35,596 nt of DNA from a virus: positions 1-35,596 of IMG/VR virus record IMGVR_UViG_3300033508_000294; one strand, written 5' to 3'. The notes beneath the pieces are model-generated. The model was not told the origin of the DNA. It did no database searches and was given only the letters and a program-made list of their open reading frames with translations. A program made the translations under genes and the position numbers. Of this stretch, positions 8,601 to 29,154 are shown piece by piece (position 1 is the stretch's first letter; every line of letters starts with the position of its first letter).

Positions 8601-9131
8601 TGTAGATTTAGACATAAACACTGTAATCATCTTATCACCCATATTTGTTAAGTGTAATAAATTGTTTGGATTTAATCCAGTTTCATCAACTAAATATTGA
8701 AATGAATCTTCATCTCTAACCCAAAAATCTTGTCTATTAAAGAATTTTTCATAGTCAGATTGATTAACTAAACTACTATTTTCATAAAGTGCTGATGTTG
8801 AAATAGATACATAATTTAATACATCTCTATTAGGAACTGTTGCTAACATATTAAGTGCCCAAATTGGACCAGTAGCTAACATTTTTTCACATGTTCTATG
8901 AAAATAAGAATCTTTATTTTCCAATTGTTTATCAATTGTTCCATAAATTCTTTCAAAATCCACCGTATTATCAACATATACTGGTCTATTATAAGGACCT
9001 TTTTTAGAAAATCCTGGTATTAAATTAATTAATACATTTTGTGCTGGAAGTTCAATGATAGAATTATCTATTTCATTAATATAGATACCTGGTCTTTTGT
9101 ATTTTCCTAAATCTTTTTCTTGTATTGGCAT
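5700..9131 (-). CDS. contractile tail sheath protein (gp18 family), unusually large
   Basis: The N-terminal KRPGIYINEIDNS has the sheath PGVYxxE motif. The C-terminal core SAGVQPWTIVAGVNMGRIPD...MGANPITFIRNVGYIINDENS resembles the conserved sheath domain (VNPIRSFPGRGIVVWGARTL-like). It lies next to a gp19-like tube gene. The central region is Thr/Ser/Asn/Gly-rich and looks like inserted domains. Confidence 0.8.
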   Translation of the reverse strand: MPIQEKDLGKYKRPGIYINEIDNSIIELPAQNVLINLIPGFSKKGPYNRPVYVDNTVDFERIYGTIDKQLENKDSYFHRTCEKMLATGPIWALNMLATVPNRDVLNYVSISTSALYENSSLVNQSDYEKFFNRQDFWVRDEDSFQYLVDETGLNPNNLLHLTNMGDKMITVFMSKSTTTGFDVTASSWYGGDTLVPGYIDPKSFISDYLVSVLILAGDWTNYKSLSTDTTWSKYFTLNGLIIDNMQDFVNESGVVVVGSYDVSLIPNFKDLNNRDMYIESVLNNNTDKTSLFCTYNQDLLLDNDYLSDLIDLVGNTIVGLDINNINFLSYDQAIKETVDYPEVSLDSPNNVFGTANFSTPNGATKNWNNWTQTGITLSFVSGSTSSYTGGTITYQGGNYIINGVLTGITSGTTTVNTLANGYQRMDVIYLDKDGIHVMAGNTSLYPGTLSLKEITFTNTNTIILSTLELRNTAGIINGTLSDITAPSSTPDIFITSGVTGTDNYLKIEFLGTSGSTLLKNNEYPKLRSYKVWYEIVTNLEANKGVIINTLGDLKTEIKAITSLELGSTRNAQIFIYLDTPSDYFSSTTDVLLYYVDKQFKLVAGLIETTDTIITTSDLSQPNIVAKYSDFYIDFYNGIINTNDVISGTTTTMTMYIDTLGVLRVKLSNSYTVTNGLSILTDIGNWRQTVEIESYEGSDENNVVVIKVNKDRYSEIIRGSYLEAYVSADYLAPDGSEYIKGNTVARKLVRITNVKNDPADSTMKILYTDGPVKISYASGTTEMYTTSYPAVYSYATHLKGMGLKPFIIHQDSIPNGTESRLNTILNVIAKNTSMYKGLINKNKISWRYLVDSFGLGLTESSKQQYVDLCGDKLNCLGFINMPSAKSFKKSSNPSFLNTDGSLSIKYIKEGANQELNPDFLYSFGTGAGRSTTGYFFPYVKVTNNGVASFVPPAAYVASAYMRKFTTSSAGVQPWTIVAGVNMGRIPDISGTELDFSNDDLDNFSDMGANPITFIRNVGYIINDENSAQVFPVSSLSYLHSREVLIELENQLYDMLLRYQWKFNTPTIRSEIKYRADKICQNFVEQEGLYVYKNIIDSTNNTPYIIDLQGGVLDTYIEIVKGMGWIVNNITIEKTGAINSTGFQQ

Positions 9132-11323: not shown

Positions 11324-11662
11324 TTATCCTTCAAATGGTGTAAAACCATCTACATCAAATAAATATCCACTATCAACCATTTCAATTCCATCATTAATTT
11401 CTTCAGTATAAACAACAGCAGTTGCAAAATTACCCAAATGTTCAACATAAGTACTAAAAGTTTGCCATACAAATTCATCATCAACACCATCAATCATACC
11501 TGATTCCATATCACCTAAATATTTTACTATTTCTTTTGCAGTTTCAAATTTCTTTTCAAGATTTTTTTCATCATTGAATTTTTTTATTAACTTTTTTAAT
11601 AAAAGATCAGAACCTTCTAAATCAAGTATTTCATTTGATTCATTAAATTTTTTAATTTTCAT
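11324..11662 (-). CDS. small acidic protein with CTS-like leader (MKIKKFNE|S), paralog of the next gene
   Basis: The N-terminus MKIKKFNESNE shares 44 nt of identical 5' end and upstream sequence with the gene at 11687-11938. Confidence 0.5.
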   Translation of the reverse strand: MKIKKFNESNEILDLEGSDLLLKKLIKKFNDEKNLEKKFETAKEIVKYLGDMESGMIDGVDDEFVWQTFSTYVEHLGNFATAVVYTEEINDGIEMVDSGYLFDVDGFTPFEG

Positions 11663-11686
11663 AATTTTATTTATTATTTTTATTTA

Positions 11687-11938
11687 TTATTCTACTCTTT
11701 TTATTGAAAATATATATTCATATTTACCAAATTCAGCATTTATATCACCACTAAGTTTTATTTCACCTTCTGCACCAGTTGTATATTCTTCCATAGAAGC
11801 AGACAATTCATATAAAGTATTTTCTAATACATCTTGTATTTCAACTTTTAATCCTTTGAAATAATTATTACTATCATCATCTAAATGTGACTTCATTAAT
11901 TCATTATCTAAATTTTCATTAAATTTTTTAATTTTCAT
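11687..11938 (-). CDS. small acidic protein with CTS-like leader (MKIKKFNE|N)
   Basis: The N-terminus is MKIKKFNENLD. It is a tandem paralog of the gene at 11324-11662. Confidence 0.5.
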   Translation of the reverse strand: MKIKKFNENLDNELMKSHLDDDSNNYFKGLKVEIQDVLENTLYELSASMEEYTTGAEGEIKLSGDINAEFGKYEYIFSIKRVE

Positions 11939-11987
11939 AATTTTATTTATTATTTTTATTAAATGTATATATTTAATTCTACAAATT

Positions 11988-12019
11988 AAAAAAGCTCAAA
12001 TGTTATTTTGAGCTTTTCT
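11988..12019. terminator. rho-independent terminator
   Basis: The hairpin aaaagctcaaa-tgttat-tttgagctttt overlaps the stop of the gene at 12003-12545, with an A/T run beyond it. Confidence 0.6.
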
Positions 12020-12545
12020 TATGGTAAGTTTCTTTTGTCTTAAAAGACCAATTTTTATCTGGTCTATACTTTGTCTTTTTTAAATAATTATAAATAGGTT
12101 TCCAATCATTTAATGGTGAAAATCCACATTTATCTTCAAAAAGAATGTTGTAGTATGGTTTCTTATAATAATACCCAAAACAACCTGTTTCTGTTGAAAT
12201 TTCGGGGTTTTCATTCACATACTTGATATGGATATTATCTTCTTTAAATGTTTCCATATATTTTTCAATTTCTTCCGGATAAGAAGATGTAAATAAAAAC
12301 ATAACAATATCATCCCTTTCACTTAATAGTTGTAAGGTTTCTTTTGCATATGGATAATAATCTATATTCTTTGTTACCTTTCTGTAATCAGGTCTTGATA
12401 TTACACCATGTACGTCGAAAGCCCAGTATGTAGCATACCACTGATTCTTTTCAGCATGTTTAAACATCTTCTTCATCCATTTAAGGATAGGTGGTTTATA
12501 GAAAAAATTTATCATATAATAATTGCAGCTAAGTTTAATAAACAA
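12003..12545 (-). CDS. hypothetical protein (weak HAD/5'-nucleotidase-like motif)
   Basis: YWAFDVHGVIS resembles HAD motif I (DxDGV) but has His in place of the second Asp, so the assignment is tentative. Confidence 0.35.
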   Translation of the reverse strand: MFIKLSCNYYMINFFYKPPILKWMKKMFKHAEKNQWYATYWAFDVHGVISRPDYRKVTKNIDYYPYAKETLQLLSERDDIVMFLFTSSYPEEIEKYMETFKEDNIHIKYVNENPEISTETGCFGYYYKKPYYNILFEDKCGFSPLNDWKPIYNYLKKTKYRPDKNWSFKTKETYHKKSSK

Positions 12546-12697
12546 ACAAATAGATTTATTGATAAATTATTTATATTAGTTGTCCTATCAAAACGTGGGT
12601 CTCTTAATTTCAAAAAAGATTGGTAACTTAACCAACCAAATACTATCACACAAATTATATTGGCAATAGTTAAAATTACTAAAAATGTACTCATATC

Positions 12698-12976
12698 TTA
12701 AAATTTTAATTTTCCTTGTACTCTTAAACCATGTTTATTCAATTCAGGAATATCTGGTCCAACATATCTGATTGAATCCACTTCATTTTCATCACCTTCA
12801 TTAATAAAAAGGTGTCCTGAATATTCATGCCAAATTCCATTTTCATCACATCCCCAACCTTCAAATTGTTCATCAATTTTTTCCCATTCTACTGAGATTT
12901 CATGCCCATTGGGTAATTTTTCTATTGTTATCATATTTTTATGTATTAAATTATTTTTTATTAGCTGGGTAAACAA
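12698..12976 (-). CDS. hypothetical protein
   Basis: A 92-aa ORF packed within a same-strand gene string. Confidence 0.4.
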   Translation of the reverse strand: MFTQLIKNNLIHKNMITIEKLPNGHEISVEWEKIDEQFEGWGCDENGIWHEYSGHLFINEGDENEVDSIRYVGPDIPELNKHGLRVQGKLKF

Positions 12977-13214
12977 ATCTCTTCTGTACTGTTGTTACAA
13001 TTACAATAGTATCTTTATCTACTTTAGTTATGATTCCCGGTTGTGTATTTCCAGTAATAACATGGAACTGTACTGAATCACCTATTTTCATAGTTTTATC
13101 AAATTCCTTTTTTATCTTTTCAGTTTTAATTGTTAAATAAACAACAACCACAATCATTAATATTGTTGCAATAAATAATACTATTATTCCTATTATAAAT
13201 CCTAATGTATTCAT
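12951..13214 (-). CDS. small membrane protein
   Basis: N-terminal TM segment (FIIGIIVLFIATILMIVVVVYL). Confidence 0.4.
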   Translation of the reverse strand: MNTLGFIIGIIVLFIATILMIVVVVYLTIKTEKIKKEFDKTMKIGDSVQFHVITGNTQPGIITKVDKDTIVIVTTVQKRFVYPANKK

Positions 13215-13391
13215 ATCTTTTTATTTTTTATGTTGTCCTTGATAATGTAATTCACCAAGAACTACTGTTATACTTGAAATTACTGCAAATTCAAAACTTA
13301 TTAATTTCCAAAATGTCAAATATGTTATTCCATATAACACATAATAGAACATTCTTGATGTCCAAAAACTTTCTTTTTCTTTCATATCTTT

Positions 13392-13688
13392 TTATTTATT
13401 AAATATTTGAGTAAGTTTAATATATCCTACTAATATTATGATACCTGATACTACATCACATATTATTTCTGGTGTACTTTTTGGAAGTGCATTCCATCCA
13501 AAATAAACAGATTCAGATAACCAAAGGATTATTCCAAACATTAATATTCCAAAAGGTACTAAATATTTTTTATTCTTTTTTACAAGTGGATGTACTTCTC
13601 CAAAATTTTTATCATTAGAATATTTTTCTCTCAATTTATTCCATTCTTCATCCATTTTTGGATAAATTCTTTTAGTACTTTCGTCCAT
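13392..13688 (-). CDS. small membrane protein
   Basis: Two predicted TM segments (LVPFGILMFGIILWL; VVSGIIILVGYI). Confidence 0.4.
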   Translation of the reverse strand: MDESTKRIYPKMDEEWNKLREKYSNDKNFGEVHPLVKKNKKYLVPFGILMFGIILWLSESVYFGWNALPKSTPEIICDVVSGIIILVGYIKLTQIFNK

Positions 13689-13693
13689 AATTT

Positions 13694-13894
13694 TTATTTA
13701 TTAGTTATTTCTTTTGTTCTCATATTTACTACATATTCACCTTCATCACAAATCATTCCAGCAAAAATCTTATCTTTCCAAATAACTTTAAAATTCATAG
13801 GTGAATGTCCTAATTCTTCTGTTATTACTTTTTCTAATTCATCAGAAGATAAACTAGTAGATTGTATTAATTGCCATCTCTTTGGGTTTTTCAT
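13694..13894 (-). CDS. hypothetical protein
   Basis: A 66-aa ORF separated from its neighbours by 5 nt. Confidence 0.35.
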   Translation of the reverse strand: MKNPKRWQLIQSTSLSSDELEKVITEELGHSPMNFKVIWKDKIFAGMICDEGEYVVNMRTKEITNK

Positions 13895-13899
13895 ATTTT

Positions 13900-14367
13900 T
13901 TATTTTACTTCTTTGGGTTTTAAATGTGGAAATAATTTATAAAACCTTTTCCACGCAGTCTTTCTTTTCTTACTTGGGTATCTTATTTTATTACGATTAG
14001 AATTTCTACTACCATAATTAATAAATGTCTTATTATCTTTTCGTTCTGGTTTTGTCATTCTTTTGGTTTCCATATGAAGTTCATATTGAAGTGATTTGTA
14101 ATATCTCCAATGTAATAACCATTCTTCTTCAACACAACCAGCTTTTTCATATAAATCAATAATTATTTTAGCAGCAGCAACTTGTTTAGCAAATGCTCCA
14201 CTAAGTTTAACAAACCCCAATGAACTTTTAAGATTTTCTTTGTGCATAATATGATGACTCCTGATAAGTGTCATTAACTTACGTTTATCATCTCTATTCA
14301 AAGATACAATAATACCATCAACCTTATTGATAGTTATTTTTTCTGATTCAAAAAAGAATTGTTTCAT
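13900..14367 (-). CDS. hypothetical basic protein
   Basis: A 155-aa ORF whose ATG overlaps the stop of the upstream small ORF (ATGA). Confidence 0.45.
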   Translation of the reverse strand: MKQFFFESEKITINKVDGIIVSLNRDDKRKLMTLIRSHHIMHKENLKSSLGFVKLSGAFAKQVAAAKIIIDLYEKAGCVEEEWLLHWRYYKSLQYELHMETKRMTKPERKDNKTFINYGSRNSNRNKIRYPSKKRKTAWKRFYKLFPHLKPKEVK

Positions 14368-14544
14368 TTTTTAAGTCTTTGATATAAATGTAATACTATT
14401 TGAAAAGGCCATACCCATGCACCTATCAATCCGCCTAATCCATCTGTTTTCTTAGGTGCTGTTCTACCTGATAAACGATACCACCATATAAAATATAATG
14501 ATACTAATATCCCTACTAAATAATAACCTATTAATATTTCCATA
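14364..14544 (-). CDS. small membrane protein (not in ORF track)
   Basis: My own translation gives MEILIGYYLVGILVSLYFIWWYRLSGRTAPKKTDGLGGLIGAWVWPFQIVLHLYQRLKK. Its stop overlaps the next ATG (ATGA). It fills an otherwise non-coding gap. Confidence 0.35.
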
Positions 14545-14555
14545 ATTTCTATTTT

Positions 14556-14765
14556 TTAAAATGATACGATACCTTTCTTTCTATTTGCTAATTCCCTATC
14601 ACGGTCTTTCTTCCAAACACCAGTTAGATATTTTTCCAAGATAACATGATTTCCAAGTATTCTTATATACCCTTCACCATTATTGGCTCTTTCAATTACA
14701 TTTTCTAAATATTCCTTTTCATTATGTTTTAGAATATGTTCTGTAAAACATGCCATTGTTCTCAT
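14556..14765 (-). CDS. hypothetical protein
   Basis: A 69-aa ORF overlapping its neighbour by 4 nt (operon-like). Confidence 0.35.
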   Translation of the reverse strand: MRTMACFTEHILKHNEKEYLENVIERANNGEGYIRILGNHVILEKYLTGVWKKDRDRELANRKKGIVSF

Positions 14766-14965
14766 ACTTTTTTATTTCTTAAATATTTATCATTAAAATC
14801 AGTCATACCTCTGAAGAAAAGACCAAGTACAACACCAGCAAATATTGCATAAAGATCAAAATTAAAATCTTTATTTCCTATTTTTAGGATAACATAATAA
14901 AGTATCCAACCAAGTGTCATAATACTTAATGATACTAACCAAAGTCCGATTTTTTCTATTTTCAT
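14762..14965 (-). CDS. small membrane protein
   Basis: Two TM segments (IGLWLVSLSIMTLGWILYYVIL; AIFAGVVLGLFF). Confidence 0.4.
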   Translation of the reverse strand: MKIEKIGLWLVSLSIMTLGWILYYVILKIGNKDFNFDLYAIFAGVVLGLFFRGMTDFNDKYLRNKKV

Positions 14966-14980
14966 AATTTTTATTTTTTA

Positions 14981-15145
14981 ATTACCAAAAATTGTTAAAG
15001 AACTAATTCCAAAAATAGCAAAAGCAAATCTCCAAAATCCATGCCATTCACCTGGATTAAAACTCCATCCTAAAAAGGATAGACACAAATAAACTATTAG
15101 CATTATACCAATGTAACTAATAAGATTTTTTAAAAAGTTTACCAT
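14981..15145 (-). CDS. small membrane protein (not in ORF track)
   Basis: My own translation gives MVNFLKNLISYIGIMLIVYLCLSFLGWSFNPGEWHGFWRFAFAIFGISSLTIFGN. It fills the gap between genes. Confidence 0.3.
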
Positions 15146-15150
15146 AATTT

Positions 15151-15957
15151 TTATTTTTTAAGTAAGTTAATTAATTCACCAAAAGTAACAATCTGTACAC
15201 CAAGTTTCTTAGCCTTTACCATCTTAGATGTTTCTGAACTCAAATCATCTGTTACCAAGAAACTACAATCCTTATTAAGAGTACCAGCAACAACACCATA
15301 AGGAGCAACTGCTTTCTCAAAATCACCTTTAGTAGCAAATCCAAATTCTTTAGGTGAACCCGTCATTTCCATAATTCTTGTTTTCATATTACTATCATTA
15401 TTTTTTGTATCTTCTTTAGGGAATATTATTTCAACATTAGGAAGTGTTGAAATCTTTTCAACTACTTCTTTAATTTTAACCATCATATCAGAATCTTTAT
15501 TCTCAATATTTTCTCTGATTGAATATTCAATCCCTGTGAAGTCATAGAGAAGTCCACAATAGAATTTCTCTACTTGTTTAGAAATAGTATTACCTACATT
15601 ATAAAATTGTAAGGATTCAACTATATCACATAATTTAAGGGTTTTAATAGAGGATATTGCTTCCATCAATTTATCAAGTGCTCTACCACCTTTAAATTCA
15701 CCACTATCCATAAGTTGTTGTGGGGTAACGGTAAGTAAATCAGTAATATCTCTAAGACCAGCATCATAAAATTTCTTGAAAATAGCAGGACCAATTCCAG
15801 CAATTTCAAATGCTAACATTCCTTTTTGGAACTTAATAACTGCAACACCACCACAATCAGGGTTGTCACAAACTAATTTATATTTACCATTTTTTCCAGT
15901 AGTTACTTTGAGTTTTGAACTACATTCAGGACAAGTTGTTGGAATAAATTCTATCAT
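15151..15957 (-). CDS. standalone NAD-ligase (LigA) C-terminal module: Zn-finger + HhH + BRCT, no adenylation/OB domain
   Basis: CPECSSKL...CDNPDCGG is a 4-Cys LigA-type zinc finger. LAFEIAGIGPAIFKKFYDAGLRDITDLL is a helix-hairpin-helix. The C-terminal GVVAGTLNKDCSFLVTDDLSSETSKMVKAKKLGVQIVTFGEL is BRCT-like. The protein starts directly at the Zn finger. Confidence 0.65.
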   Translation of the reverse strand: MIEFIPTTCPECSSKLKVTTGKNGKYKLVCDNPDCGGVAVIKFQKGMLAFEIAGIGPAIFKKFYDAGLRDITDLLTVTPQQLMDSGEFKGGRALDKLMEAISSIKTLKLCDIVESLQFYNVGNTISKQVEKFYCGLLYDFTGIEYSIRENIENKDSDMMVKIKEVVEKISTLPNVEIIFPKEDTKNNDSNMKTRIMEMTGSPKEFGFATKGDFEKAVAPYGVVAGTLNKDCSFLVTDDLSSETSKMVKAKKLGVQIVTFGELINLLKK

Positions 15958-15979
15958 GTTTTATAATTTTAATTAGATA

Positions 15980-16010
15980 CAAAGATAATACAAATAAATG
16001 AAATAACAAA
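15980..16010 (-). promoter_or_regulatory. Bacteroidetes sigma-A-type promoter (minus strand TTTG-N19-TATCTTTG)
   Basis: Read on the minus strand, caaa at 16007-16010, a 19-nt gap, then caaagata at 15980-15987 give TTTG-N19-TATCTTTG. It lies 22 nt upstream of the ATG at 15957. Confidence 0.55.
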
Positions 16011-16016
16011 ATTTAT

Positions 16017-16289
16017 TTAAATAATTGGGGATTCCACTATTGCAAAATGTGTTATTTGACACTGATCACCTTCTAAATCATAACCTATCCATTGTTTATC
16101 TTCCATAAATAATTGTCTGGCTGTTCTTGGAAGAATTTCAATAAATGAACATACTTTATCATTTCCTCTTAAGAAGGTTGCTCTTTGAAATCTTGAACAA
16201 TCCTTATCTGTCAAATTATTTTGCCAAATTAAAATATTTTCACCTACAATATTGTAATTGTTGATTTCATTGATGTTAATCCAGTTCAT
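16017..16289 (-). CDS. hypothetical protein
   Basis: A 90-aa ORF with its own copy of the promoter motif. Confidence 0.45.
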   Translation of the reverse strand: MNWININEINNYNIVGENILIWQNNLTDKDCSRFQRATFLRGNDKVCSFIEILPRTARQLFMEDKQWIGYDLEGDQCQITHFAIVESPII

Positions 16290-16315
16290 ATGTATAATTT
16301 TTAATTAATAATATA

Positions 16316-16346
16316 CAAAGATAAGATAAATAAATGTAATAACAAA
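16316..16346 (-). promoter_or_regulatory. Bacteroidetes sigma-A-type promoter, duplicate of the 15980-16010 element
   Basis: caaagata at 16316-16323 and caaa at 16343-16346 are spaced 19 nt apart. The surrounding ~55 nt resembles 15961-16016. Confidence 0.55.
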
Positions 16347-16355
16347 ATTTATAGG

Positions 16356-16667
16356 TTAAGAATTTTCTAACATTTTTTCAACAATATCATTTAATGTCTG
16401 TATATCAATTGTCTTCATATACCAAATGGCACTTTTTCCATTTTCATCTTTTAAAGAGAATGAAAAATCATCACCATAAATACCACCATCATATTTATAT
16501 AGTTCAGTAAAATATAGTTTTTGATAATTATGTGTTATTTCAAAATTTAACTTAACATAAGTATCATCTTGTTTATTGAAGTATTCCTCAACCTTATCAA
16601 ATAATTCATTTCTACTTAATCTACTTTCATTTAATATATGTTGTTTATATGTTTTAATATTTTTCAT
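16356..16667 (-). CDS. hypothetical protein with CTS-like leader (MKNIKTYKQHILNE|S)
   Basis: The N-terminus resembles the T4 IPIII capsid-targeting sequence (KTYQEFIAE). Confidence 0.45.
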   Translation of the reverse strand: MKNIKTYKQHILNESRLSRNELFDKVEEYFNKQDDTYVKLNFEITHNYQKLYFTELYKYDGGIYGDDFSFSLKDENGKSAIWYMKTIDIQTLNDIVEKMLENS

Positions 16668-16674
16668 TTTTAAA

Positions 16675-16899
16675 TTATTTTTTATATGATAATAATTTTC
16701 TTAACTTTTCAACCACTACATCAAAGTTATTTTCATCTTTGAAAAATCCTTTAGCCTGAAATGTGGATGGTGAAGAAGAATTTTTAACTGCATACATTGC
16801 TTCTCTTAAATTTGAAAATTCTTCTATTGTTAATGGTTCTAAATCAACATTATTGTTTGAATCTTCTAAAGATTCATTAAATTTTTTAATATGTGCCAT
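16675..16899 (-). CDS. small protein with CTS-like leader (MAHIKKFNE|S)
   Basis: The N-terminus is MAHIKKFNESLE, belonging to the same leader family as the genes at 11324 and 11687. Confidence 0.45.
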   Translation of the reverse strand: MAHIKKFNESLEDSNNNVDLEPLTIEEFSNLREAMYAVKNSSSPSTFQAKGFFKDENNFDVVVEKLRKLLSYKK

Positions 16900-17022
16900 T
16901 TTAAATATTATTTATTTTTATGTATATATAAAAAAATATTATGATATTTTCAGTTACAAATGTAATAAAAAATTTTTAATATATAACTAAAATGGTAATA
17001 AAAATTTTTAATATATAAAAAT

Positions 17023-18057
17023 ATGAAAAAATATCTTGATTTTATAAACGAAAGTAAATATGATAATACTTTAGAATTATATCCTGAAAAAGCAGACTTA
17101 ATAATAAAACTTAAAGAAGAAAATATTACACCAGCATGGTTGCCTTGGGTAGTAAAAAATTGTAATAATATGGAAGATATTGAAATAGTTATTGATTTTA
17201 ATATTGCAAAACAAAATAATTTAATTCAAAAAGCAGACATATTTAGTTATAACACCATCCAGAAGATAAAAGATGAAATAGAAAATGTAAAAGGAAGAAT
17301 TAAAAGAATAAAAGATAGAGAAGGAATTAAACCAATTTTTGAAAGTGGTCCATATGAAATTTATAAATTAAATAATTATAATGAATGTGCTAAATTATTG
17401 AATGGTACTGATTTTTGTATAAAAAAACCAGATAGATTTGATTTTTACACAATAGATAATACTGATCCAGAAAAAACATCTAAACTTGGTGCACATGAAT
17501 TATACATTGTAATAAATGAAGATGAAAAAGGACGTTTTAATAAAATAGTTATAGGTAAGACTAAATTTATAACAATAATATATGATGTGGAAGATGAATT
17601 TTTAAATAATGTAAATCAAATAATTACATTAGAATTACCGGAAAGTCGTGCTGTTTGGAAAAAGTGGACAATTAATAAATGTTTAAAACAAATTATTTAT
17701 TTTGATGATATAAAAAACTACTTTATGTCAATGCCAAATAATGTTGTTTCTTTCTTGAATAGAACAATATATAATCCTACTGATGAAAATCCTAATAAAA
17801 CCAGTTTTAAAGCAAGTTTTGATGGTATTATTAATGGACATCCTATTACATTTGATGATTATAAAGTAGTTAAAACTACTACATCTAATTCAGGTGGTGC
17901 AAAATTAATTATATCTAATGGTAAATTAATATTTTATGCGAATTATGATAATGAACATAATTTAGTTAAAATAAATAAAGATGCTAATCAAACTGAAAAA
18001 ATTATTGATATTAATAATCCAGAATTAATAGAATATTTTACAAATATATGTAAATGA
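17023..18057 (+). CDS. hypothetical protein with CTS-like leader (MKKYLDFINE|S)
   Basis: A 344-aa ORF whose N-terminus is MKKYLDFINESK. No recognisable catalytic motifs. Confidence 0.5.
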   Translation: MKKYLDFINESKYDNTLELYPEKADLIIKLKEENITPAWLPWVVKNCNNMEDIEIVIDFNIAKQNNLIQKADIFSYNTIQKIKDEIENVKGRIKRIKDREGIKPIFESGPYEIYKLNNYNECAKLLNGTDFCIKKPDRFDFYTIDNTDPEKTSKLGAHELYIVINEDEKGRFNKIVIGKTKFITIIYDVEDEFLNNVNQIITLELPESRAVWKKWTINKCLKQIIYFDDIKNYFMSMPNNVVSFLNRTIYNPTDENPNKTSFKASFDGIINGHPITFDDYKVVKTTTSNSGGAKLIISNGKLIFYANYDNEHNLVKINKDANQTEKIIDINNPELIEYFTNICK

Positions 18058-18447: not shown

Positions 18448-18735
18448 TTATGCTCGTGGTAATAACCAAGGATCAGGAAAATTAAATTCTACTGGATTAC
18501 CATTGTATTCAATATATTCATTCCCATCAAATATACAATCTAAACAACATTTAGTACTTAGATTAAAATTTTCTTTTAATTCATTATTTAAAACAGTATC
18601 CAATAAAATTTTTACATCATTCATTGAATCACAATATCCATGTGAATTAATTTCTTTTCTTAAAATACTCAAAGATTTAATCCTATCATATTTCAATTGT
18701 CCTACTTTTATTAATTTATATTCTAATTCTTCCAT
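18448..18735 (-). CDS. hypothetical Cys-rich protein
   Basis: A 95-aa ORF with several Cys residues (CDS...CCLDC). Confidence 0.4.
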   Translation of the reverse strand: MEELEYKLIKVGQLKYDRIKSLSILRKEINSHGYCDSMNDVKILLDTVLNNELKENFNLSTKCCLDCIFDGNEYIEYNGNPVEFNFPDPWLLPRA

Positions 18736-18994
18736 AGTTTATTAAAGCTAATTCTGTTAATTTATAAGTGTAAGCAATCCATTTTCCACCAATTCCAATA
18801 GGAATTGCACCTTCAGTTGAATACCACACAATTATTTCACTATTATTTGGTTCAATATACAACCCATTATATCTCATTTTAAGTTCTACTATAATACCAG
18901 TTCCATCTTTGGTATGTACTTCTTGACCTAAATAAAATTGTGGGATACCATCAACTGATTCCAAACCTTTTTGATAATCTGTAAGTTTTGTCAT
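18716..18994 (-). CDS. hypothetical protein
   Basis: A 92-aa ORF. Its N-terminus MTKLTDYQKGLE|S is weakly CTS-like. Confidence 0.4.
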   Translation of the reverse strand: MTKLTDYQKGLESVDGIPQFYLGQEVHTKDGTGIIVELKMRYNGLYIEPNNSEIIVWYSTEGAIPIGIGGKWIAYTYKLTELALINYGRIRI

Positions 18995-22773: not shown

Positions 22774-23499
22774 ATGATAAATACTTATGAAGAATATGTT
22801 AATTTGATTAAAGAAGGATTAATAATAACACATCGAATATCAAAATATAAACATCTGATAGAAAATTATTTAGATAGAAATAATATTAAATTCGAAATTG
22901 ATGTTAATAGTACTAATGATACTTTTAAATTAACATTATATGAAAAAGAATTAAATTCATATGAATCAATACTATCTTTGATAAATAATATTGGGTATTT
23001 CCCTTCTTCGATAAAAGTTTTTAGAAATATTAAAGATAGTAACAATGAAAAATATCAAAATTTTAAATATAACTTTGATACAATTAAAGATGAAATAAAT
23101 AATGAAAAATTTATTAAATTAATTTTGTCTTGTGAAGCATTGTTTGATTATGAAGTTTTAAATTTACCATCTATTATTTACCATATATATCCATCAAATT
23201 ATATAAATAAAATTTTAAATCTTGGTCTTATTCCAAAATCAAGAATGAGAAAATCATATCATCCAGAAAGATGTTATTTTACTTATAGTATAATTGATGC
23301 AAATAATTTAATAAAAGAATTTCAACTTAATGATATTAAAGATAACATAGGTCCAATAAACTATTCAATTTTAAAAATTGATTCTTCTGATATGAAAAAT
23401 AAAACAAATGATAAAGATATTAAATTTTTTATTGATCCTAACTCTGTTGGATTTTATACTTACGATAATATCAATCCTTCTTTTATAATTTATCCTTAA
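22774..23499 (+). CDS. hypothetical protein immediately downstream of the MTase, with CTS-like leader (MINTYEEYVNLIKE|G)
   Basis: It starts 4 nt after the MTase stop. The N-terminus resembles the T4 IPIII CTS. There are no recognisable nuclease motifs. Confidence 0.45.
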   Translation: MINTYEEYVNLIKEGLIITHRISKYKHLIENYLDRNNIKFEIDVNSTNDTFKLTLYEKELNSYESILSLINNIGYFPSSIKVFRNIKDSNNEKYQNFKYNFDTIKDEINNEKFIKLILSCEALFDYEVLNLPSIIYHIYPSNYINKILNLGLIPKSRMRKSYHPERCYFTYSIIDANNLIKEFQLNDIKDNIGPINYSILKIDSSDMKNKTNDKDIKFFIDPNSVGFYTYDNINPSFIIYP

Positions 23500-23884
23500 T
23501 CTTCTTTAATTTTAAAGACCTTTGAATTTCTGTTCCTAACATACTTTTTAACATTTCAGATTTTCTTTGAAATGAATCAATTTCTTCTTTATTGTCAAAA
23601 TACTTTTTTAATATTATAATTTTACTAATTATCTTAAAATTCCACCATTTAAAATTTAAAGTATGGATATTCTTATAACCCGAATAAATATTCATTGATT
23701 CTGAAAATCCTTCCTTCATAGTAACAGAATTACTAACAAATCTAGTTTTAGTTTCTTTATTAATATATGGACTAGCATAATAGGAATTACCTTCAATAAA
23801 TTCCCAATTTTCAGGATGATTTAAAGCATTCTTTAACAAATCAATATAAACTTTTTCTATACTTCTGTCTACTTGTGTTTTCAT
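23483..23884 (-). CDS. small protein, K-L-K-K-I-K C-tail family (paralog A)
   Basis: It carries SPYINKETK and WWNFK motifs. The C-terminus is ...RSLKLKKIKDKL. Confidence 0.5.
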   Translation of the reverse strand: MKTQVDRSIEKVYIDLLKNALNHPENWEFIEGNSYYASPYINKETKTRFVSNSVTMKEGFSESMNIYSGYKNIHTLNFKWWNFKIISKIIILKKYFDNKEEIDSFQRKSEMLKSMLGTEIQRSLKLKKIKDKL

Positions 23885-24263
23885 AATTTTTTCCTTATTT
23901 TAGTTACTTTTAAAAATCTATCCATATTATAACCTAATGCATCTTTTAATTCATTGTTAAGTTTTTCATCTTCATTTTTTTTCTATCCATTATAGTATCT
24001 AAATACATTGAATGTATTAATATACTAGTTTTAAAATCCCACCAAGAAATTTTTAATTCATAAATTCGATAATCATTTTTATATATGAATACTTCAAAAT
24101 TATTCATATCGTGTTCTATTTTAAATTGGATTTTAGTTTCTTTATTAATATATGGACTAGTAAAAGTATAAACAACATCTGAAGATTTCCATTTTTCAGG
24201 TGTTAATAACATTTCTTTAAGTAATTCCAAATATACCTTTTTTAATTCCTTATCTACTTTCAT
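23885..24263 (-). pseudogene. frameshifted member of the same family (paralog B); conserved C-tail encoded in the -1 frame after an A8 run
   Basis: The ORF 23946-24263 carries SPYINKETK and WWDFK motifs but ends early (...KMKMKNLTMN). The sequence downstream, in another frame, encodes ...DALGYNMDRFLKVTKIRKKL*, matching the family C-tail. The frame switch coincides with the T8 (coding-strand A8) run at about 23979-23988. Confidence 0.5.
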
Positions 24264-24673
24264 ATTTTTTTCTTATTTAACTTTTTCATTATTCTAATTA
24301 ATTTTATTGACCTCATTATTAATTTTTCTTTAGTATTAAGGTCAATAAACATTTGTGTTAAATTACAATTTTTTGAATAATCTGTTAACCAACCATTAAT
24401 ACTAAATGGTACATGTCTTATTTGATTATCTTTTAATATTGCATTGATTAATTTCTTTTGTGGTTTAAAAAATGTACCAACATTATAACTTGGTAAATGT
24501 GTTTTAGTTAATGGTTCAGTATCACTAATATGTTGTTTTACAAAATTTAATCTCAATTCAAGATTACTGATATTAAGAATTAATTTAGCTTGTATTAATG
24601 TCTTATCATTCCCAAAGGAATAAAAACTTTCATTAGTACCAATAATATAATACTTATTATCAATATTTTTCAT
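24260..24673 (-). CDS. small protein with related basic C-tail (RSIKLIRIMKKLNKKKI)
   Basis: Overlapping start and stop codons place it in the same operon-like string. Confidence 0.45.
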   Translation of the reverse strand: MKNIDNKYYIIGTNESFYSFGNDKTLIQAKLILNISNLELRLNFVKQHISDTEPLTKTHLPSYNVGTFFKPQKKLINAILKDNQIRHVPFSINGWLTDYSKNCNLTQMFIDLNTKEKLIMRSIKLIRIMKKLNKKKI

Positions 24674-25083
24674 TCTAATTTCTTTTTAATTTTAGATAAT
24701 TTTAAAGATCTATCCAAATTTGCACCCAATGACTTTCTCAATATTTCATCAGTATCTCTTGCTTTTTTCCATTTATCTTTGACATCCATAAATCTCTTTA
24801 ATCTTTTTAATAATTTTCTTGTTTTAAAATCCCAAAAAGATAGTTCTAATGTATAAATAAGACTACTCTTGTTATAAATATCAATCTGTGAACTATCAAA
24901 ATCACCTAATGATGTACAGGTTTTAAAAAATATTTCACTATCATCACTAATACAAGGACTTTTATATTCCTTATATGAATATTGTAAATTAGTCCATTTT
25001 TCTTGGGTTTCTAATAAACCTCTTAAGATAGTTAAATAAATATCTTTAGTTTCTTTGTCAATATCTAATCTTACCTTATCCAT
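24670..25083 (-). CDS. small protein, K-L-K-K-I-K C-tail family (paralog C)
   Basis: It carries SFWDFK. The C-terminus is ...RSLKLSKIKKKLE. Confidence 0.5.
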   Translation of the reverse strand: MDKVRLDIDKETKDIYLTILRGLLETQEKWTNLQYSYKEYKSPCISDDSEIFFKTCTSLGDFDSSQIDIYNKSSLIYTLELSFWDFKTRKLLKRLKRFMDVKDKWKKARDTDEILRKSLGANLDRSLKLSKIKKKLE

Positions 25084-25586: not shown

Positions 25587-25823
25587 ATGACAGTAAGCAT
25601 TAGAAATACAAGAGAAGAAAATTTCAAGAAAGAAATTGTCAATTTTACAGATGAACATTATAAATTAGCAAATGATATATATAATCAATTTGGTAATTAT
25701 GGACCATTATTAGTTAGTCAAGAAGATGATACATTATGTTTTGTAGTGAATTTAGCAACCAATAGAGTAGATAAAGAAATAGGAACAAATTTATATAAAA
25801 TAAAAATAATTAAAATAAAATGA
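25587..25823 (+). CDS. hypothetical protein
   Basis: A 78-aa ORF whose stop overlaps the dUTPase ATG (ATGA). Confidence 0.4.
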
Positions 25824-26422
25824 AGAAACAAGTAGTAAAAGTATTTAATAAGGGTACAAATGATTTACCTAATTATTCAACAGAATTTGCAGCAGGATTT
25901 GATATCAGAGCTGATTTAAGTAGGATTAATCAATTCAGTGATTTAATGGGTAATGATTCATTATCACTTACAATACCAGAAGATGGTAGTCCTAAAGTAA
26001 TTACATTATTTCCTAAAGGTGGTAGAGTATTAATTCCAACTGGATTACACATATCTATACCAGATAATTATGAATTACAAATTAGACCAAGAAGCGGTCT
26101 TGCATTGAAAAATGGTATAACTATTATGAATAGTCCAGGTACAATTGATTGTTTTTCAGAAGATTCATCTATTAAATCAATTAATGGTGATATTAATATA
26201 AAAGACTTAAAAATTAATGATGTTGTTTTATCAGTAAATGAAAATTTAGAAATTGAAAAAGATATTATAACTGCTATTATTGATAAAGGTGTGTTAGAAA
26301 TTAATATTATTGAAACAGAAGATGGTATATTAGAAATTACTGATAATACTTTAGTTTACACTGATAGAGGATTAATAAAAGCAATTGAATTAAAAGAAAA
26401 TGATAATATTTTACATTTTTGA
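25820..26422 (+). CDS. dut: dUTPase N-terminal extein (motifs I-III) fused to N-terminal half of a split intein
   Basis: The dUTPase motifs are AAGFDI (I), [12 protein letters not shown] (II) and NSPGTID (start of III). Cys then begins an intein-like block, CFSEDSSI (block A-like), and the 90-aa segment ends at a stop codon. Confidence 0.8.
26150..26419 (+). other. N-intein half (about 90 aa) of a naturally split intein
   Basis: The half starts at Cys111 straight after the GTID of dUTPase motif III. Block A reads [10 protein letters not shown]. Confidence 0.7.
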
Positions 26423-26474
26423 TATTTTCCACCTCTATAATCTTTATATATAATAGAAAATAATTATAGGAGAA

Positions 26475-27362: not shown

Positions 27363-27367
27363 TAAAA

Positions 27368-27475
27368 ATGAAAAAGACAAAAATTTTATCAATAAAAAGA
27401 GAAAAGAAACAAACCTATGATATTACAGTTAATAATAATCATAATTTCTTTTGTAATAATCACTTAATACATAAC
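27368..27475 (+). other. C-intein half (36 aa)
   Basis: MKKTKILSIKREKKQTYDITVNNNHNFFCNNHLIHN resembles the DnaE C-intein (..VYDIGVERDHNFALKNGFIASN). Confidence 0.7.
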
Positions 27476-28200: not shown

Positions 28201-28213
28201 AATTGACTTTTTT
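28182..28213. terminator. bidirectional rho-independent terminator
   Basis: An A-run, the hairpin agtcaattc-atta-gaattgact, then T6. It overlaps the stop at 28200. Confidence 0.75.
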
Positions 28214-29144
28214 AATTTTCCCAATTTGGGTAATAATTTTGAGTAGAAGATAATTTTATTTTCTTTGCGTCTTCTAAATTCATTATATTTTTGAAATCAT
28301 TTCTTATTATATTAGTTTTAGCCAAATCTAATAATTTTATAAATTTTTCCATTTCATCATCATTAGTATTGTATTGATTATTTAATTTATCCATATAAAT
28401 AATACCTGATTTATTAAGTTTTTTATTAATATTTCTCATAAAATCTTGTATTTGTTGATCATTTAATTCTAAAGTATTATTATTAATTCTTCTTTGAATT
28501 GATCTTCTATTAAAAAATGATATAGGAGAATGTTGATATTGTTCCCAGATAGTAATAAATTGATATAATAAATTTTTATCAGTAATTAGATTCTCTACTT
28601 TAAAATGTTTTATTAAAAGTATATAAGATAATATTTCTACTCTTTTATTTTTATCATATTTTTTAAATGAATGAATAAATGCACCCATTTCTCTATCATC
28701 TGCAAAATATAACATAGTTTCTAATAATCCAATTTTATTAGAAATTTTTTGGAAGAAATTTTTAATTTGATTTAATACTGTATTATTTTCATAATCAATT
28801 AATAATATATTCCTATCTATTGTTGATTGTAATACATGTATTAATTCATGATTTAATGTTGCTTTACTTGGTGCCTTTAAATAAATTCCTACACTATTAG
28901 AGTATTTTAAATATGCTGTTTTATTAATAAATTTAGGACTAATACCAATTACTATGAAAACATATGGCCAATCTTTTAAAAAAGGAAACTCTAATGATAA
29001 CTCTTTAATGCTAAAATTATATCTTTTTAATTTATTATCATTCATATATTCTATAATATATGTTGATAATTTAATAATATCTTTATTTATTCCAGTATCA
29101 GTAGAAGATTTTTTTTCTAATAAAAATTCATTAAATGTTTTCAT
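28212..29144 (-). CDS. HExxH zinc metalloprotease-like protein with CTS-like leader (start revised to Met15 of the track ORF)
   Basis: It contains NHELIHVLQ (HExxH). The track ORF start at 29186 lies inside the terminator hairpin of the upstream gene. The internal Met at 29144 gives MKTFNEFLLE|KK, matching the leader family. Confidence 0.55.
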   Translation of the reverse strand: MKTFNEFLLEKKSSTDTGINKDIIKLSTYIIEYMNDNKLKRYNFSIKELSLEFPFLKDWPYVFIVIGISPKFINKTAYLKYSNSVGIYLKAPSKATLNHELIHVLQSTIDRNILLIDYENNTVLNQIKNFFQKISNKIGLLETMLYFADDREMGAFIHSFKKYDKNKRVEILSYILLIKHFKVENLITDKNLLYQFITIWEQYQHSPISFFNRRSIQRRINNNTLELNDQQIQDFMRNINKKLNKSGIIYMDKLNNQYNTNDDEMEKFIKLLDLAKTNIIRNDFKNIMNLEDAKKIKLSSTQNYYPNWEN

Positions 29145-29154
29145 AGTCTTATAT

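What the first reader, a model, noticed from the sequence alone, without database searches (positions are those of the whole stretch)
11324..18057. Shared T4 capsid-targeting-sequence-like N-terminal leader on at least 8 unrelated proteins
Unrelated ORFs begin with near-identical leaders: MKIKKFNE|S (11324), MKIKKFNE|N (11687), MAHIKKFNE|S (16675), MKNIKTYKQHILNE|S (16356), MKKYLDFINE|S (17023), MKNFNQFVNE|G (397), MINTYEEYVNLIKE|G (22774), MKTFNEFLLE|K (29144) and, more weakly, MTKLTDYQKGLE|S (18716). This closely resembles the T4 internal-protein capsid targeting sequence (IPIII: MKTYQEFIAE), which directs proteins into the prohead and is removed by the prohead protease after (L/I)-x-E. The set includes an ankyrin-repeat protein and an HExxH metalloprotease. 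I therefore suspect this element packages a battery of proteins into the capsid for co-injection, as effectors or anti-defence proteins.
Basis: partly seen in the sequence, partly recalled or inferred. Interest (0 to 1): 0.85.

Follow-up and report, generated by a model that had tools for sequence, protein, structure and literature searches.

The report
T4-type capsid-targeting leaders in a megaphage
About eight unrelated genes on this fragment of a huge Bacteroidales-type phage begin with a ten-residue tag almost identical to the one phage T4 uses to load proteins into its head, and related phages carry the tag on about 8% of their genes, so the head-packaged proteins of uncultured giant phages may be predictable from sequence alone.

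Summary
The window is a whole 35.6-kb, 25% GC contig of a Mahaphage-type huge phage (sheath 49% identical to the 735-kb genome LR756501).

Eight of 52 ORFs start with a leader of the form M-(I/K)-K-x-[FY]-x-x-[FY]-[ILV]-[NKL]-E, or the short form M-x-IKKFNE. Shuffled N-termini give 0.4. A ninth candidate is weak, and one further copy lies inside the ankyrin gene.

T4 IPII and IPIII begin MKTYQEFIAE, so the comparison with T4 is correct.

In LR756501, 81 of 964 ORFs carry the leader (about 8-11 expected), on at least 43 unrelated families. Synonymous codons vary freely at the conserved positions.

About 60 relatives encode, between a T4-type portal and a gp23-type capsid gene, a gp21-like serine protease. 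It is fused to a scaffold with 9-16 tandem copies of [YF]xxY[ILV]AE, which is the same heptapeptide.

Leader genes share a promoter-like motif with the structural genes. Internal leader copies sit at domain junctions in disordered linkers.

Best reading: a T4-type capsid-targeting, protease-removable leader, greatly expanded. Packaging, cleavage and injection are inferred, not shown, and the contig itself holds no head genes. The "effector" role and the "HExxH metalloprotease" label remain untested.

The parts
397..1167 (+). Two-module cargo gene. Leader MKNFNQFVNE at 397-426 is followed by GIRDKMLPKSEDE. The N domain spans residues ~20-135 and the C-terminal ankyrin domain residues ~150-256.
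   Evidence: weight-matrix score 21.7; Pfam Ank. The C half is a stand-alone leader gene in L002 (58% identical). The N half is joined to other domains in P0027, P0028 and P0030.
784..810 (+). Internal leader copy FYKNDFVNE|S (E = residue 138) at the junction of the two modules. Predicted internal cleavage site.
   Evidence: score 13.5, the highest internal position in the window. In the AlphaFold model, residues 138-145 have pLDDT < 50 and lie between two confident domains. The same junction recurs in homologues.
11324..11662 (-). 112-aa acidic ORFan (mature pI 4.1). Short-class leader MKIKKFNE|S at 11639-11662.
   Evidence: No Pfam or PHROG family.
11687..11938 (-). 83-aa acidic ORFan. Short-class leader MKIKKFNE|N at 11915-11938. 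It shares 46 identical bases (22 upstream plus 24 coding) with the gene at 11662.
16356..16667 (-). 103-aa ORFan. Variant leader MKNIKTYKQHILNE|S at 16626-16667.
   Evidence: It differs by one inserted residue from the L003 leader MNKLKTYKDFVNE|S. Probable, but not scored by the weight matrix.
16675..16899 (-). 74-aa ORFan. Short-class leader MAHIKKFNE|S at 16873-16899. The motif TTTATATATAC, which contains the late-like consensus T[TA]ATATATA, lies about 30 bases upstream.
17023..18057 (+). 344-aa cargo gene. Canonical leader MKKYLDFINE|S at 17023-17052. TTAATATATA lies about 12 bases upstream.
   Evidence: Weight-matrix score 23.1. Only itself was found among 5.8 billion proteins by the word-indexed search. 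Remote homologues P0016 and P0017 (38-39% identical) also begin with leaders ending INE|GKFED and LNE|GKYED.
18716..18994 (-). 92-aa ORF with a weak candidate leader MTKLTDYQKGLE|S (18959-18994).
   Evidence: No support from the weight matrix or from orthologues. Treated as doubtful.
22774..23499 (+). 241-aa cargo gene. Variant leader MINTYEEYVNLIKE|GLI at 22774-22815. ATAATATATAA lies about 12 bases upstream.
   Evidence: Orthologues keep the leader: L095 (83% identical, MINTYEEYLNLIKE|GLI) and LR756501 566182 (MIYSFPKYLQHIKE|GLI).
28212..29144 (-). 310-aa basic cargo protein (pI 9.4) with an invariant HELxH motif. Canonical leader MKTFNEFLLE|K at 29115-29144. The true start is the internal ATG of ORF 28212-29186. 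TTTATATATAA lies about 12 bases upstream.
   Evidence: (score 12.5). In the AlphaFold model, residues 1-15 are unstructured and outside the fold.

Best explanation
The shared N-terminus is a capsid (prohead) targeting and processing leader of the phage T4 type, used on a much larger scale.

Proposed mechanism:
1. The leader-bearing proteins are made together with the virion proteins.
2. Their first 8-14 residues have the consensus M-[IV]-K-K-[FY]-x-x-[FY]-[ILV]-[NK]-E. This imitates one unit of the scaffold repeat ([YF]-x-x-Y-[ILV]-A-E, repeated every 14 residues), which in this clade is fused to a gp21-like serine protease.
3. The leader therefore co-assembles with the scaffold core on the portal, and the cargo is enclosed when the gp23-like shell forms.
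4. The protease then cuts after the Glu of each [ILV]-x-E site. This fragments the scaffold, removes the leader from each cargo protein, and cuts multi-module proteins at their internal leader copies.
5. The mature cargo stays in the head with the DNA and probably enters the cell with it.

Shown here: the leaders exist and are strongly enriched at N-termini. They are conserved at the protein level and match the T4 capsid targeting sequence. The scaffold repeat and the protease homology with catalytic residues are present in relatives. Leader genes are associated with a structural-gene promoter motif. The leaders and junctions lie in disordered regions.

Inferred: binding to the scaffold, cleavage, encapsidation and ejection.
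For: 1. Enrichment. 8 of 52 window ORFs carry a leader, against 0.4 in shuffles. In LR756501 it is 81 of 964, against 7.6 (shuffles) or 10.6 (internal-Met segments). The strict motif gives 43 against 0.6.
2. Match to T4. IPII and IPIII start MKTYQEFIAE|A and IPI starts MKTFKEF. The position matrix has E at residue 10-11, [YF] at -6, [FY] at -3, [ILV] at -2, and A/S/G/N after the E. T4 internal proteins are described as diverse proteins sharing only the targeting sequence (PMC3012670). Proteases of the gp21 type cut after Glu (PMC5694885).
3. Protein-level selection. GAA:GAG is 44:18 at the invariant E and TTT:TTC is 25:12, close to genome usage.
4. Unrelated cargo. 62 LR756501 leader proteins fall into 43 BLAST clusters, and the window cargo proteins are unrelated to each other.
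5. T4-type head module in relatives. Portal_T4 scores 1e-69 and Gp23 1.8e-25. The gene between them matches T4 gp21 by hhalign at 94% probability, E 1.3e-7. Its only PDB match is 5jbl, the T4 prohead protease. GEFDHP and VSSR are invariant. These are the two positions where the 5jbl chain differs from wild-type gp21 (GELNAP, GVASRG), which I take to be the mutated catalytic His and Ser.
6. Scaffold repeat. That protein carries 9-16 copies of [YF]xxY[ILV]AE in every one of about 60 related loci where it is complete.
7. Promoter association. The late-like motif [TA]ATATATA lies upstream of the portal, protease, sheath and tube genes, and of 47% of leader genes against 23% of others (p = 4.5e-4).
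8. Conservation in orthologues of cargo that is otherwise diverging.
9. Accessibility. Leader residues 1-15 and 1-18 and the internal junction 138-145 have pLDDT < 50 next to confident folds.
10. Domain boundaries. The same motif marks boundaries where domains are exchanged between homologues.
Against: - No head, scaffold or protease gene lies on this contig. The contig is the complete record, so the link to the protease rests on relatedness: sheath 49%, MVP-like protein 50%, and tube 66-81% to other fragments.
- The Pfam Peptidase_S77 score is below the curated cut-off (22.9 against 27 bits).
- There are no proteomic or experimental data for any member of the clade.
- The short class has Phe, not Ile/Leu/Val, two residues before the Glu.
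- About 8-11 of the pattern matches in LR756501 are expected by chance. Some matches with enzyme domains (TonB_C, DeoC, radical SAM) may be false.
- Most window cargo proteins are acidic, unlike the basic T4 internal proteins.
- The cultured relative PTm1, which has a fused protease-scaffold, has neither the leader nor the repeat, so the system is not general to Bacteroidota jumbo phages.
Confidence: 0.72

Rival explanations
1. The leader is a protein-level address or processing signal for a destination other than the capsid. Candidates are a phage-built compartment (the contig encodes a major-vault-protein-like shell protein), export, or regulated degradation or activation in the cytoplasm.
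For: There is no direct evidence of encapsidation. An 826-aa MVP-like protein (MVP_shoulder 1.6e-26) is conserved in the clade and lies on this contig. Cargo proteins are mostly acidic, unlike T4 internal proteins.
Against: The leader matches the T4 capsid targeting sequence residue by residue. The same heptapeptide is the repeat unit of the scaffold fused to the prohead protease. The leader is hydrophilic and has no signal-peptide character. The true lipoprotein signal at 1172-1522 looks quite different.
Confidence: 0.12
2. The motif is a module boundary or N-terminal cap that spreads by domain shuffling and gene duplication (a recombination joint or linker), with no targeting role. The resemblance to T4 is convergent.
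For: The motif, with the following [GS][IV]RDxMxPKSxEE segment, sits between exchangeable domains in many homologues. 11662 and 11938 share 46 identical bases including upstream DNA.
Against: The leader occurs without the following segment on at least 43 unrelated families. It keeps a fixed distance from the initiator Met, with E at residue 10-11. Synonymous codons vary. It is disordered and outside the folds. It ends in the cleavage motif of the clade's own protease family.
Confidence: 0.1
3. The conservation lies in the nucleic acid: a translation-initiation or promoter-proximal element in a genome without Shine-Dalgarno sites.
For: The leader codons are AT-rich, and no Shine-Dalgarno sequences are visible upstream.
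Against: Both synonymous codons are used at the conserved positions in genome-like proportions. F/Y and I/L/V alternate, as expected for selection on the peptide. The motif also occurs internally at domain junctions, and in genomes of 22-32% GC.
Confidence: 0.03
4. It is a chance product of a 25% GC genome rich in K, N, I, F, Y and E.
For: A loose pattern ([FYILV][ILVFN]xE) is not enriched in the window: 7 observed against 6 expected.
Against: Specific patterns are enriched 20- to 70-fold at N-termini over shuffles, over internal-Met segments and over the internal rate. A matrix trained on another genome picks out the window leaders. The control phage PTm1 gives 2 of 137.
Confidence: 0.01

Closest known systems
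Phage T4 capsid targeting sequence (CTS) of internal proteins IPI, IPII and IPIII (Mullaney and Black 1996; reviewed in PMC3012670 and PMC5694885)
   Same: A presequence of about 10 residues, MK(T)[YF]x(E)F[IL]xE, on otherwise unrelated small proteins. It ends in an aliphatic-x-Glu site of a gp21-type prohead protease. The phage has a T4-type portal-protease-capsid gene order. Cargo evolves fast while the leader is conserved.
   Different: - Scale: about 8% of ORFs in LR756501 and about 15% on this contig, against three internal proteins (IPI, IPII, IPIII) in T4.
- Three leader length classes.
- N or K rather than A before the Glu.
- Cargo up to about 540 aa and often acidic.
- Leader copies inside multi-module proteins.
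- The scaffold is fused to the protease and built of 9-16 leader-like repeats.
- Bacteroidales-type host.
- Function here is inferred only.
Propeptides of head and ejection proteins of phiKZ-like giant phages (phiKZ, 201phi2-1, SPN3US)
   Same: Many (tens of) proteins are loaded into a very large head and trimmed by a gp21-related protease after Glu. N-termini are conserved between diverged paralogues (PMC5694885).
   Different: Those propeptides are mostly 80-160 residues long, have an A/S/G-x-E motif, share no single short leader, and occur in an unrelated phage lineage.
Cargo-loading peptides of encapsulins, and scaffold-fusion packaging in P22 (from established knowledge)
   Same: A short peptide that binds the inside of an HK97-fold shell or its scaffold is enough to load unrelated cargo.
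   Different: Those peptides are C-terminal or scaffold-derived, are not removed by a maturation protease, and show no sequence similarity.
Tenacibaculum phage PTm1 protease-scaffold fusion
   Same: A cultured Bacteroidota jumbo phage with a gp21-like protease fused to a repeat-containing scaffold (27% identity over residues 6-362).
   Different: Its repeats are different (KELSEGIEKWI type). Leader-like N-termini are at chance level, 2 of 137. It cannot serve as an experimental stand-in.

Membership tests
T4-type capsid targeting sequence | N-terminal presequence of about 10-20 residues resembling MKTYQEFIAE / MKTFKEF | tested here: met
   Window leaders MKTFNEFLLE, MKKYLDFINE and MKNFNQFVNE against T4 IPII, IPIII and IPI read from AF158101. 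The consensus from 74 leaders has E at residue 10-11.
T4-type capsid targeting sequence | Ends in a prohead-protease site (aliphatic-x-Glu, cut after Glu) | tested here: met
   Position -2 is I, L or V in 72 of 74 leaders, and E is invariant by construction. The short class has F at -2. Only the sequence was tested, not cleavage.
T4-type capsid targeting sequence | Carried by otherwise unrelated proteins | tested here: met
   43 BLAST clusters among 62 LR756501 leader proteins. Window cargo proteins are mutually unrelated. Most have no Pfam or PHROG family.
T4-type capsid targeting sequence | The phage encodes a gp21-family protease and a T4-type head module | tested here: inconclusive
   Met in the relative LR756501 and about 60 related loci. 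Not testable for this phage itself, because the contig is the whole record and holds no head genes.
T4-type capsid targeting sequence | The leader is necessary and sufficient for encapsidation and is absent from the mature virion protein | not testable with these tools
   Needs virion proteomics or reporter packaging.
Peptidase S77 (T4 gp21 prohead protease), for the protease-scaffold gene of relatives | Sequence or profile similarity to gp21 with conserved catalytic His and Ser, and a position between the portal and major capsid genes | tested here: met
   hhalign 94% probability, E 1.3e-7. The only PDB match is 5jbl. H77 and S132/S133 are invariant in 37 sequences. Gene order is as in T4. 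Caveat: the Pfam score of 22.9 is below the cut-off of 27.
Ankyrin repeat protein (window 397-1167, C-terminal module) | Match to ankyrin repeat profiles above the curated threshold | tested here: met
   Ank 27.0 bits against a cut-off of 21.1, plus Ank_4 and Ank_3 above cut-off. Homologues are annotated as ankyrin proteins.
Zincin (HExxH) metalloprotease (window 28212-29144) | HExxH motif within a zincin fold | tested here: inconclusive

The most novel reading that the evidence does not exclude
In the Mahaphage-type huge phages the head scaffold is a polymer of capsid-targeting units fused to the maturation protease. Any protein, or any module of a polyprotein, that begins with one such unit is co-assembled, enclosed and then cut free. 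Roughly 8-15% of the gene set, more than 40 unrelated and fast-evolving families, would then be delivered into the host with the DNA as a pre-made starter kit. The packaged proteome of uncultured giant phages could be read directly from their genomes.
Probability: 0.45. Interest if true: 0.85.

Novelty: new variant of a known kind. Interest (0 to 1): 0.72.

Why it matters
If correct, a motif of about ten residues gives a sequence-only predictor of which proteins uncultured megaphages load into their heads. These are genomes of 600-735 kb made up mostly of unknown genes. The predictor points to dozens of candidate injected proteins, including ankyrin-repeat and HExxH proteins, for study as early-acting or counter-defence factors.

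It would also show that the T4 targeting sequence is ancient, since it is shared by coliphages and Bacteroidales megaphages. It suggests how the sequence works, namely by mimicking a scaffold repeat, which is not settled even for T4. Finally, it offers a set of natural leader variants for loading foreign proteins into phage capsids. I found no paper in the searchable library that links capsid targeting sequences to huge phages.

Tried and rejected
- Near-identical DNA in GenBank phages: none, apart from a 76-base methylase match.
- Exact look-up of the tube protein in the assembly index: not on record.
- Finding the rest of this phage's genome: not possible. The 35,596-base window is the longest contig carrying its proteins.
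- Pfam and PHROG searches on the nine cargo proteins: only ankyrin and weak tape-measure-like hits.
- Tenacibaculum phage PTm1 as a cultured model: it lacks both the leader and the repeat. I read 113 of its 225 kb.
- The 344-aa protein has no close homologue. Exhaustive HMMER found two at 38-39% identity and a few remote ones.
- The idea that the C-terminal ...MTYENFILRK of ORF 29213-30283 is the remnant of a lost leader gene: rejected, because the close relative L095 keeps ...LSFDDFLRRG at the same place.
- Chance and nucleotide-level explanations: rejected.
- I did not scan Lak phages or the other 630-640 kb genomes for the leader.

Full report
WHAT THE WINDOW IS

The 35,596 bases have 22-30% GC throughout. 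They carry a 1143-aa contractile-sheath gene (5700-9131, minus strand) and a tube gene (4974-5537, minus strand).

There is no near-identical DNA among GenBank phages. By protein, the sheath is 49% identical over 96% of its length to LR756501, the 735-kb "uncultured phage", and 45-47% identical to the 634-642 kb genomes. It is more distantly related to Lak megaphages and T4-like phages. Those genomes form the Mahaphage clade, which is predicted to infect Bacteroidetes (PMC7162821).

Six IMG/VR fragments have tube proteins 66-81% identical to the window's. A JGI contig, L095, is co-linear with the right half of the window, with gene products up to 98% identical. The window is itself a complete contig: it is the longest record carrying its proteins.

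THE OBSERVATION

I sort them into four groups.

- Three are canonical: MKNFNQFVNE (397), MKKYLDFINE (17023) and MKTFNEFLLE (29144).
- Three are a short class: MKIKKFNE (11662, 11938) and MAHIKKFNE (16899).
- Two are spacing variants: MKNIKTYKQHILNE (16667) and MINTYEEYVNLIKE (22774).
- One is weak: MTKLTDYQKGLE (18994).

Eight of 52 ORFs match one of three leader patterns. Shuffling residues 2-20 gives a mean of 0.4 and a maximum of 2. None of 168 segments starting at an internal Met matches.

A weight matrix trained only on LR756501 scores the three canonical window leaders at 23.1, 21.7 and 12.5. The highest internal position in the window (13.5) is a second copy of the leader inside the ankyrin gene.

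The mature parts of the nine proteins are not similar to each other. Except for the ankyrin repeats, they match no Pfam or PHROG family. The genes at 11662 and 11938 share 46 identical bases, including 22 upstream of the ATG, so that pair is a local duplication of a gene's 5' end.

IT IS A CLADE-WIDE FEATURE

I fetched LR756501 whole.

- The strict motif [FY]xx[FY][ILV][NK]E starts within the first 13 residues of 43 of 964 ORFs. The expectation is 0.6 from the internal rate or from shuffles.
- With all three classes, 81 ORFs (8.4%) match, against 7.6-10.6 expected.
- The Glu sits at residue 10 or 11 in most. The consensus is M-[IV]-K-K-[YF]-x-x-[FY]-[IL]-[NK]-E-[ASGN].
- Sixty-two such proteins fall into 43 BLAST clusters: two families of ten, one pair and 40 singletons. 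They range from 69 to 544 aa and are scattered round the genome.
- At the conserved positions both synonymous codons are used, roughly as elsewhere in the genome (GAA 44: GAG 18; TTT 25: TTC 12). The constraint is therefore on the peptide, not the nucleic acid.
- With the same patterns a 30% GC Bacteroidota jumbo phage, PTm1, gives 2 of 137 ORFs. Fifty kb of T4 gives 3 of 73, two of which are IPII and IPIII.

COMPARISON WITH T4, CHECKED ON SEQUENCE

From AF158101, IPII and IPIII begin MKTYQEFIAE followed by A, and IPI begins MKTFKEFTS.... This fits the megaphage consensus at every position except Ala in place of Asn/Lys before the Glu.

The T4 literature describes the internal proteins as a diverse set sharing only a capsid targeting sequence, which places them in the scaffolding core. 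It states that gp21-type proteases cut C-terminal to Glu and remove these 10-20-residue propeptides (PMC3012670; PMC5694885). That T4's motif is specifically Leu/Ile-x-Glu is from my own knowledge of Black et al. 1994.

HEAD MODULE OF THE CLADE

LR756501 has three genes in T4 order:
- a portal (Portal_T4, 1e-69);
- an 807-aa protein;
- a major capsid protein (Gp23, 1.8e-25).

The first ~180 residues of the 807-aa protein are a gp21 homologue.
- Pfam Peptidase_S77 gives E 6.7e-5, but 22.9 bits against a cut-off of 27.
- A profile of 37 clade members aligns to T4 gp21 with 94% probability, E 1.3e-7.
- Its only match among solved structures is 5jbl, the T4 prohead protease.
- The motifs GEFDHP and VSSR are invariant. 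They align with GELNHP and VSSRG of gp21. These are the two places where the crystallised chain differs from the wild type, which I take to be the mutated catalytic His and Ser.

The rest of the protein is a scaffold-like region. It contains about 12-14 repeats, spaced 14 residues apart, of the type I-x-Y-[ST]-E-Y-I-A-E-x-[LV]-D.

Sixty-eight related loci were found with the capsid protein. Wherever the upstream gene is complete (about 60 loci), it has 9-16 copies of [YF]xxY[ILV]AE.

The scaffold repeat, the leader and the T4 targeting sequence (YQEFIAE) are thus the same heptapeptide. The protease's own N-terminus carries GL[KR]K[IL]NE|[AS], which resembles the short leader class.

FURTHER SUPPORT

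(a) Orthologues keep the leader while the rest of the protein drifts.
- The eleven relatives of the HExxH protein that I read (43-58% identical) each carry MK[TSRN][FW]x[ED][FY][ILV]xE at or within three residues of the annotated start. This also fixes the true start at 29144.
- The gene at 22774 keeps ...IKE|GLI in L095 and in LR756501.
- The 344-aa protein has no close homologue. Its two relatives at 38-39% identity start MKYIKSFEPFKINE|GKFED and MIKKYNNFIKYLNE|GKYED.

(b) Structure models place the leader outside the fold. Residues 1-15 of the HExxH protein have pLDDT < 50 in a model with mean pLDDT 85. So do residues 1-18 of the ankyrin protein.

(c) The leader also occurs inside proteins, at domain boundaries.
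- In window gene 397-1167 the sequence FYKNDFVNE|SIRDKMSPKSEED (E = residue 138) repeats the N-terminal NQFVNE|GIRDKMLPKSEDE.
- The C-terminal ankyrin half is a separate 115-aa gene with its own N-terminal leader in the closest relative, L002 (58% identical).
- The N-terminal half is joined to a different C-terminal domain in P0027, and sits behind an HD-domain module in P0028 and P0030. Each time it is preceded by the motif.
- In the model, residues 138-145 are the only low-confidence stretch between two confident domains.
This is what one expects of a cleavable junction in a small polyprotein.

(d) Gene expression signals.
- A motif T[TA]ATATATA lies 10-45 bases upstream of the tube, sheath and 1347-aa structural genes of the window, and of the portal, protease, sheath and tube genes of LR756501.
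- It also lies upstream of window leader genes 17023, 22774, 29144, 16899 and 11938.
- In LR756501 it precedes 47% of leader genes against 23% of others (p = 4.5e-4).
- Several non-structural genes instead have TAnnTTTG, the Bacteroidetes -7 box (from my own knowledge).
That the first motif is a late promoter is an inference.

MECHANISM AND ITS STATUS

The best-supported explanation is a T4-type capsid-targeting leader. It would co-assemble with a scaffold made of the same unit and be removed by the fused protease after the Glu. Internal copies would be cut in the same way.

Shown: the motif, its enrichment and position, protein-level conservation, identity with the T4 sequence, the scaffold repeat, protease homology with catalytic residues (in relatives), the promoter association, and disorder of the leader and junction.

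Inferred: scaffold binding, cleavage, encapsidation, ejection, and any role of the cargo.

WEAK POINTS

- The contig has no head genes.
- The S77 assignment is below Pfam's cut-off.
- The short class has Phe two residues before the Glu.
- Most window cargo proteins are acidic (pI 4.1-5.7), unlike T4's basic internal proteins.
- Some pattern matches in LR756501 are expected by chance (about 8-11). Hits with TonB_C, DeoC or radical-SAM domains may be among them.

RIVALS

- Chance and a nucleic-acid element are excluded.
- A signal for another destination, for instance a compartment built by the conserved MVP-like protein at 1583-4063, cannot be excluded without experiments. It does not explain the identity with the scaffold repeat.
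- A pure "module joint" reading explains the internal copies, but not the fixed position after the initiator Met on more than 40 unrelated families.

CARGO

The ankyrin assignment is confirmed. The HELxH motif is invariant in 13 orthologues, but no metalloprotease fold could be recognised. The "metalloprotease" label is therefore unproven. Nothing tested here bears on an anti-defence role.

NOVELTY

The T4 targeting sequence and the diversity of T-even internal proteins are textbook knowledge. Long propeptides in phiKZ-like giant phages are also known (PMC5694885).

I found nothing in the searchable library that connects capsid targeting sequences with huge phages or Mahaphage genomes. The library omits many subscription papers, so this is not proof of absence.

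I rate it a new variant of a known kind: the same device, in a distant lineage, with three differences. It has expanded to about 8-15% of genes. It is used at internal junctions. It is paired with a protease-scaffold fusion built from the same unit.

Noticed in passing
window 2-400 (+): This is the 3' part of an etfB (electron transfer flavoprotein beta) gene, open at the contig's left end. It has about 40% GC against 25% elsewhere and is up to 77% identical in protein to Bacteroidales MAG genes. Its stop codon overlaps the ATG of leader gene 397. It is either a host-derived metabolic gene of the phage or an assembly join. It supports a Bacteroidales-type host.
   Followed up: partly
window 25820-27676 (+): The dUTPase is a 'fractured' gene.
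- 25820-26422 encodes the N part plus an intein N-half (starts CFSEDS).
- 26475-27362 is a free-standing endonuclease-like ORF (weak TnsA-like match).
- 27368-27676 encodes an intein C-half (...HLIHN|C) plus the dUTPase C part.
The close relative L095 has an intact 175-aa dUTPase. This is a candidate split intein with an intervening homing endonuclease.
   Followed up: partly
window 1583-4063 (-): An 826-aa protein has major-vault-protein shoulder and repeat domains and an SPFH-like region (MVP_shoulder 1.6e-26). It is conserved in L003 (74%) and LR756501 17179-19608 (50%). Its role in a phage is unknown.
   Followed up: no
window 29213-30283 (-), last 10 codons 29216-29245: This protein has a membrane-like segment and weak tape-measure hits. 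It ends in a leader-like ...NVMTYENFILRK. Its orthologue in L095 ends ...NVLSFDDFLRRG. A C-terminal [FY]xxF[IL]xR motif is therefore conserved, possibly an uncleaved scaffold-binding tail.
   Followed up: partly
LR756501 genome-wide (e.g. 552104-560463), and loci L024-L030 and L054; absent from the window: The motif DPYGEE[DEN]W occurs about 115 times in about 95 proteins. It is very often the last 8-10 residues (...R[VI]FS.LDPYGEENWxx), or it follows a leader or lies between domains. A related ...LNPYGNDLNE|G precedes junctions in homologues from the window's lineage. Unexplained.
   Followed up: partly
window 397-465 and 793-855; L002, L004, L005; proteins P0027-P0041: In the window's lineage the leader is often followed by [GS][IVL]R[DE]xMxPK[ST]xEE[IL]. 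The combined module marks both N-termini and internal domain boundaries, with up to three per protein. Domains (ankyrin, HD, ParB-like and others) are exchanged across these boundaries.
   Followed up: partly
window, upstream of 9292, 15957, 16289, 20362, 25489: A TATCTTTGTA / TAnnTTTG motif, resembling the Bacteroidetes -7 promoter box, precedes non-structural genes. T[TA]ATATATA precedes structural and leader genes. This suggests two promoter classes.
   Followed up: partly
window 23483-25083 (-): Three small paralogous genes at 23483-23884, 23946-24263 and 24670-25083 (a fourth small gene, 24260-24673, lies among them) share ...[KD][VI]Y[LI][ED]LL[KR]... near the N-terminus, and two of the three (23483-23884 and 24670-25083) share a ...SLKL[KS]KIK[DK]KL C-terminus. 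Function unknown.
   Followed up: no
LR756501 61904-66169, just upstream of the head module: There are four tandem paralogues of 332-361 aa. At least two begin with leaders (MSTLSHYKNFVNE|A, MALYNYNGFLFE|A). This is one of the two ten-member leader families.
   Followed up: no
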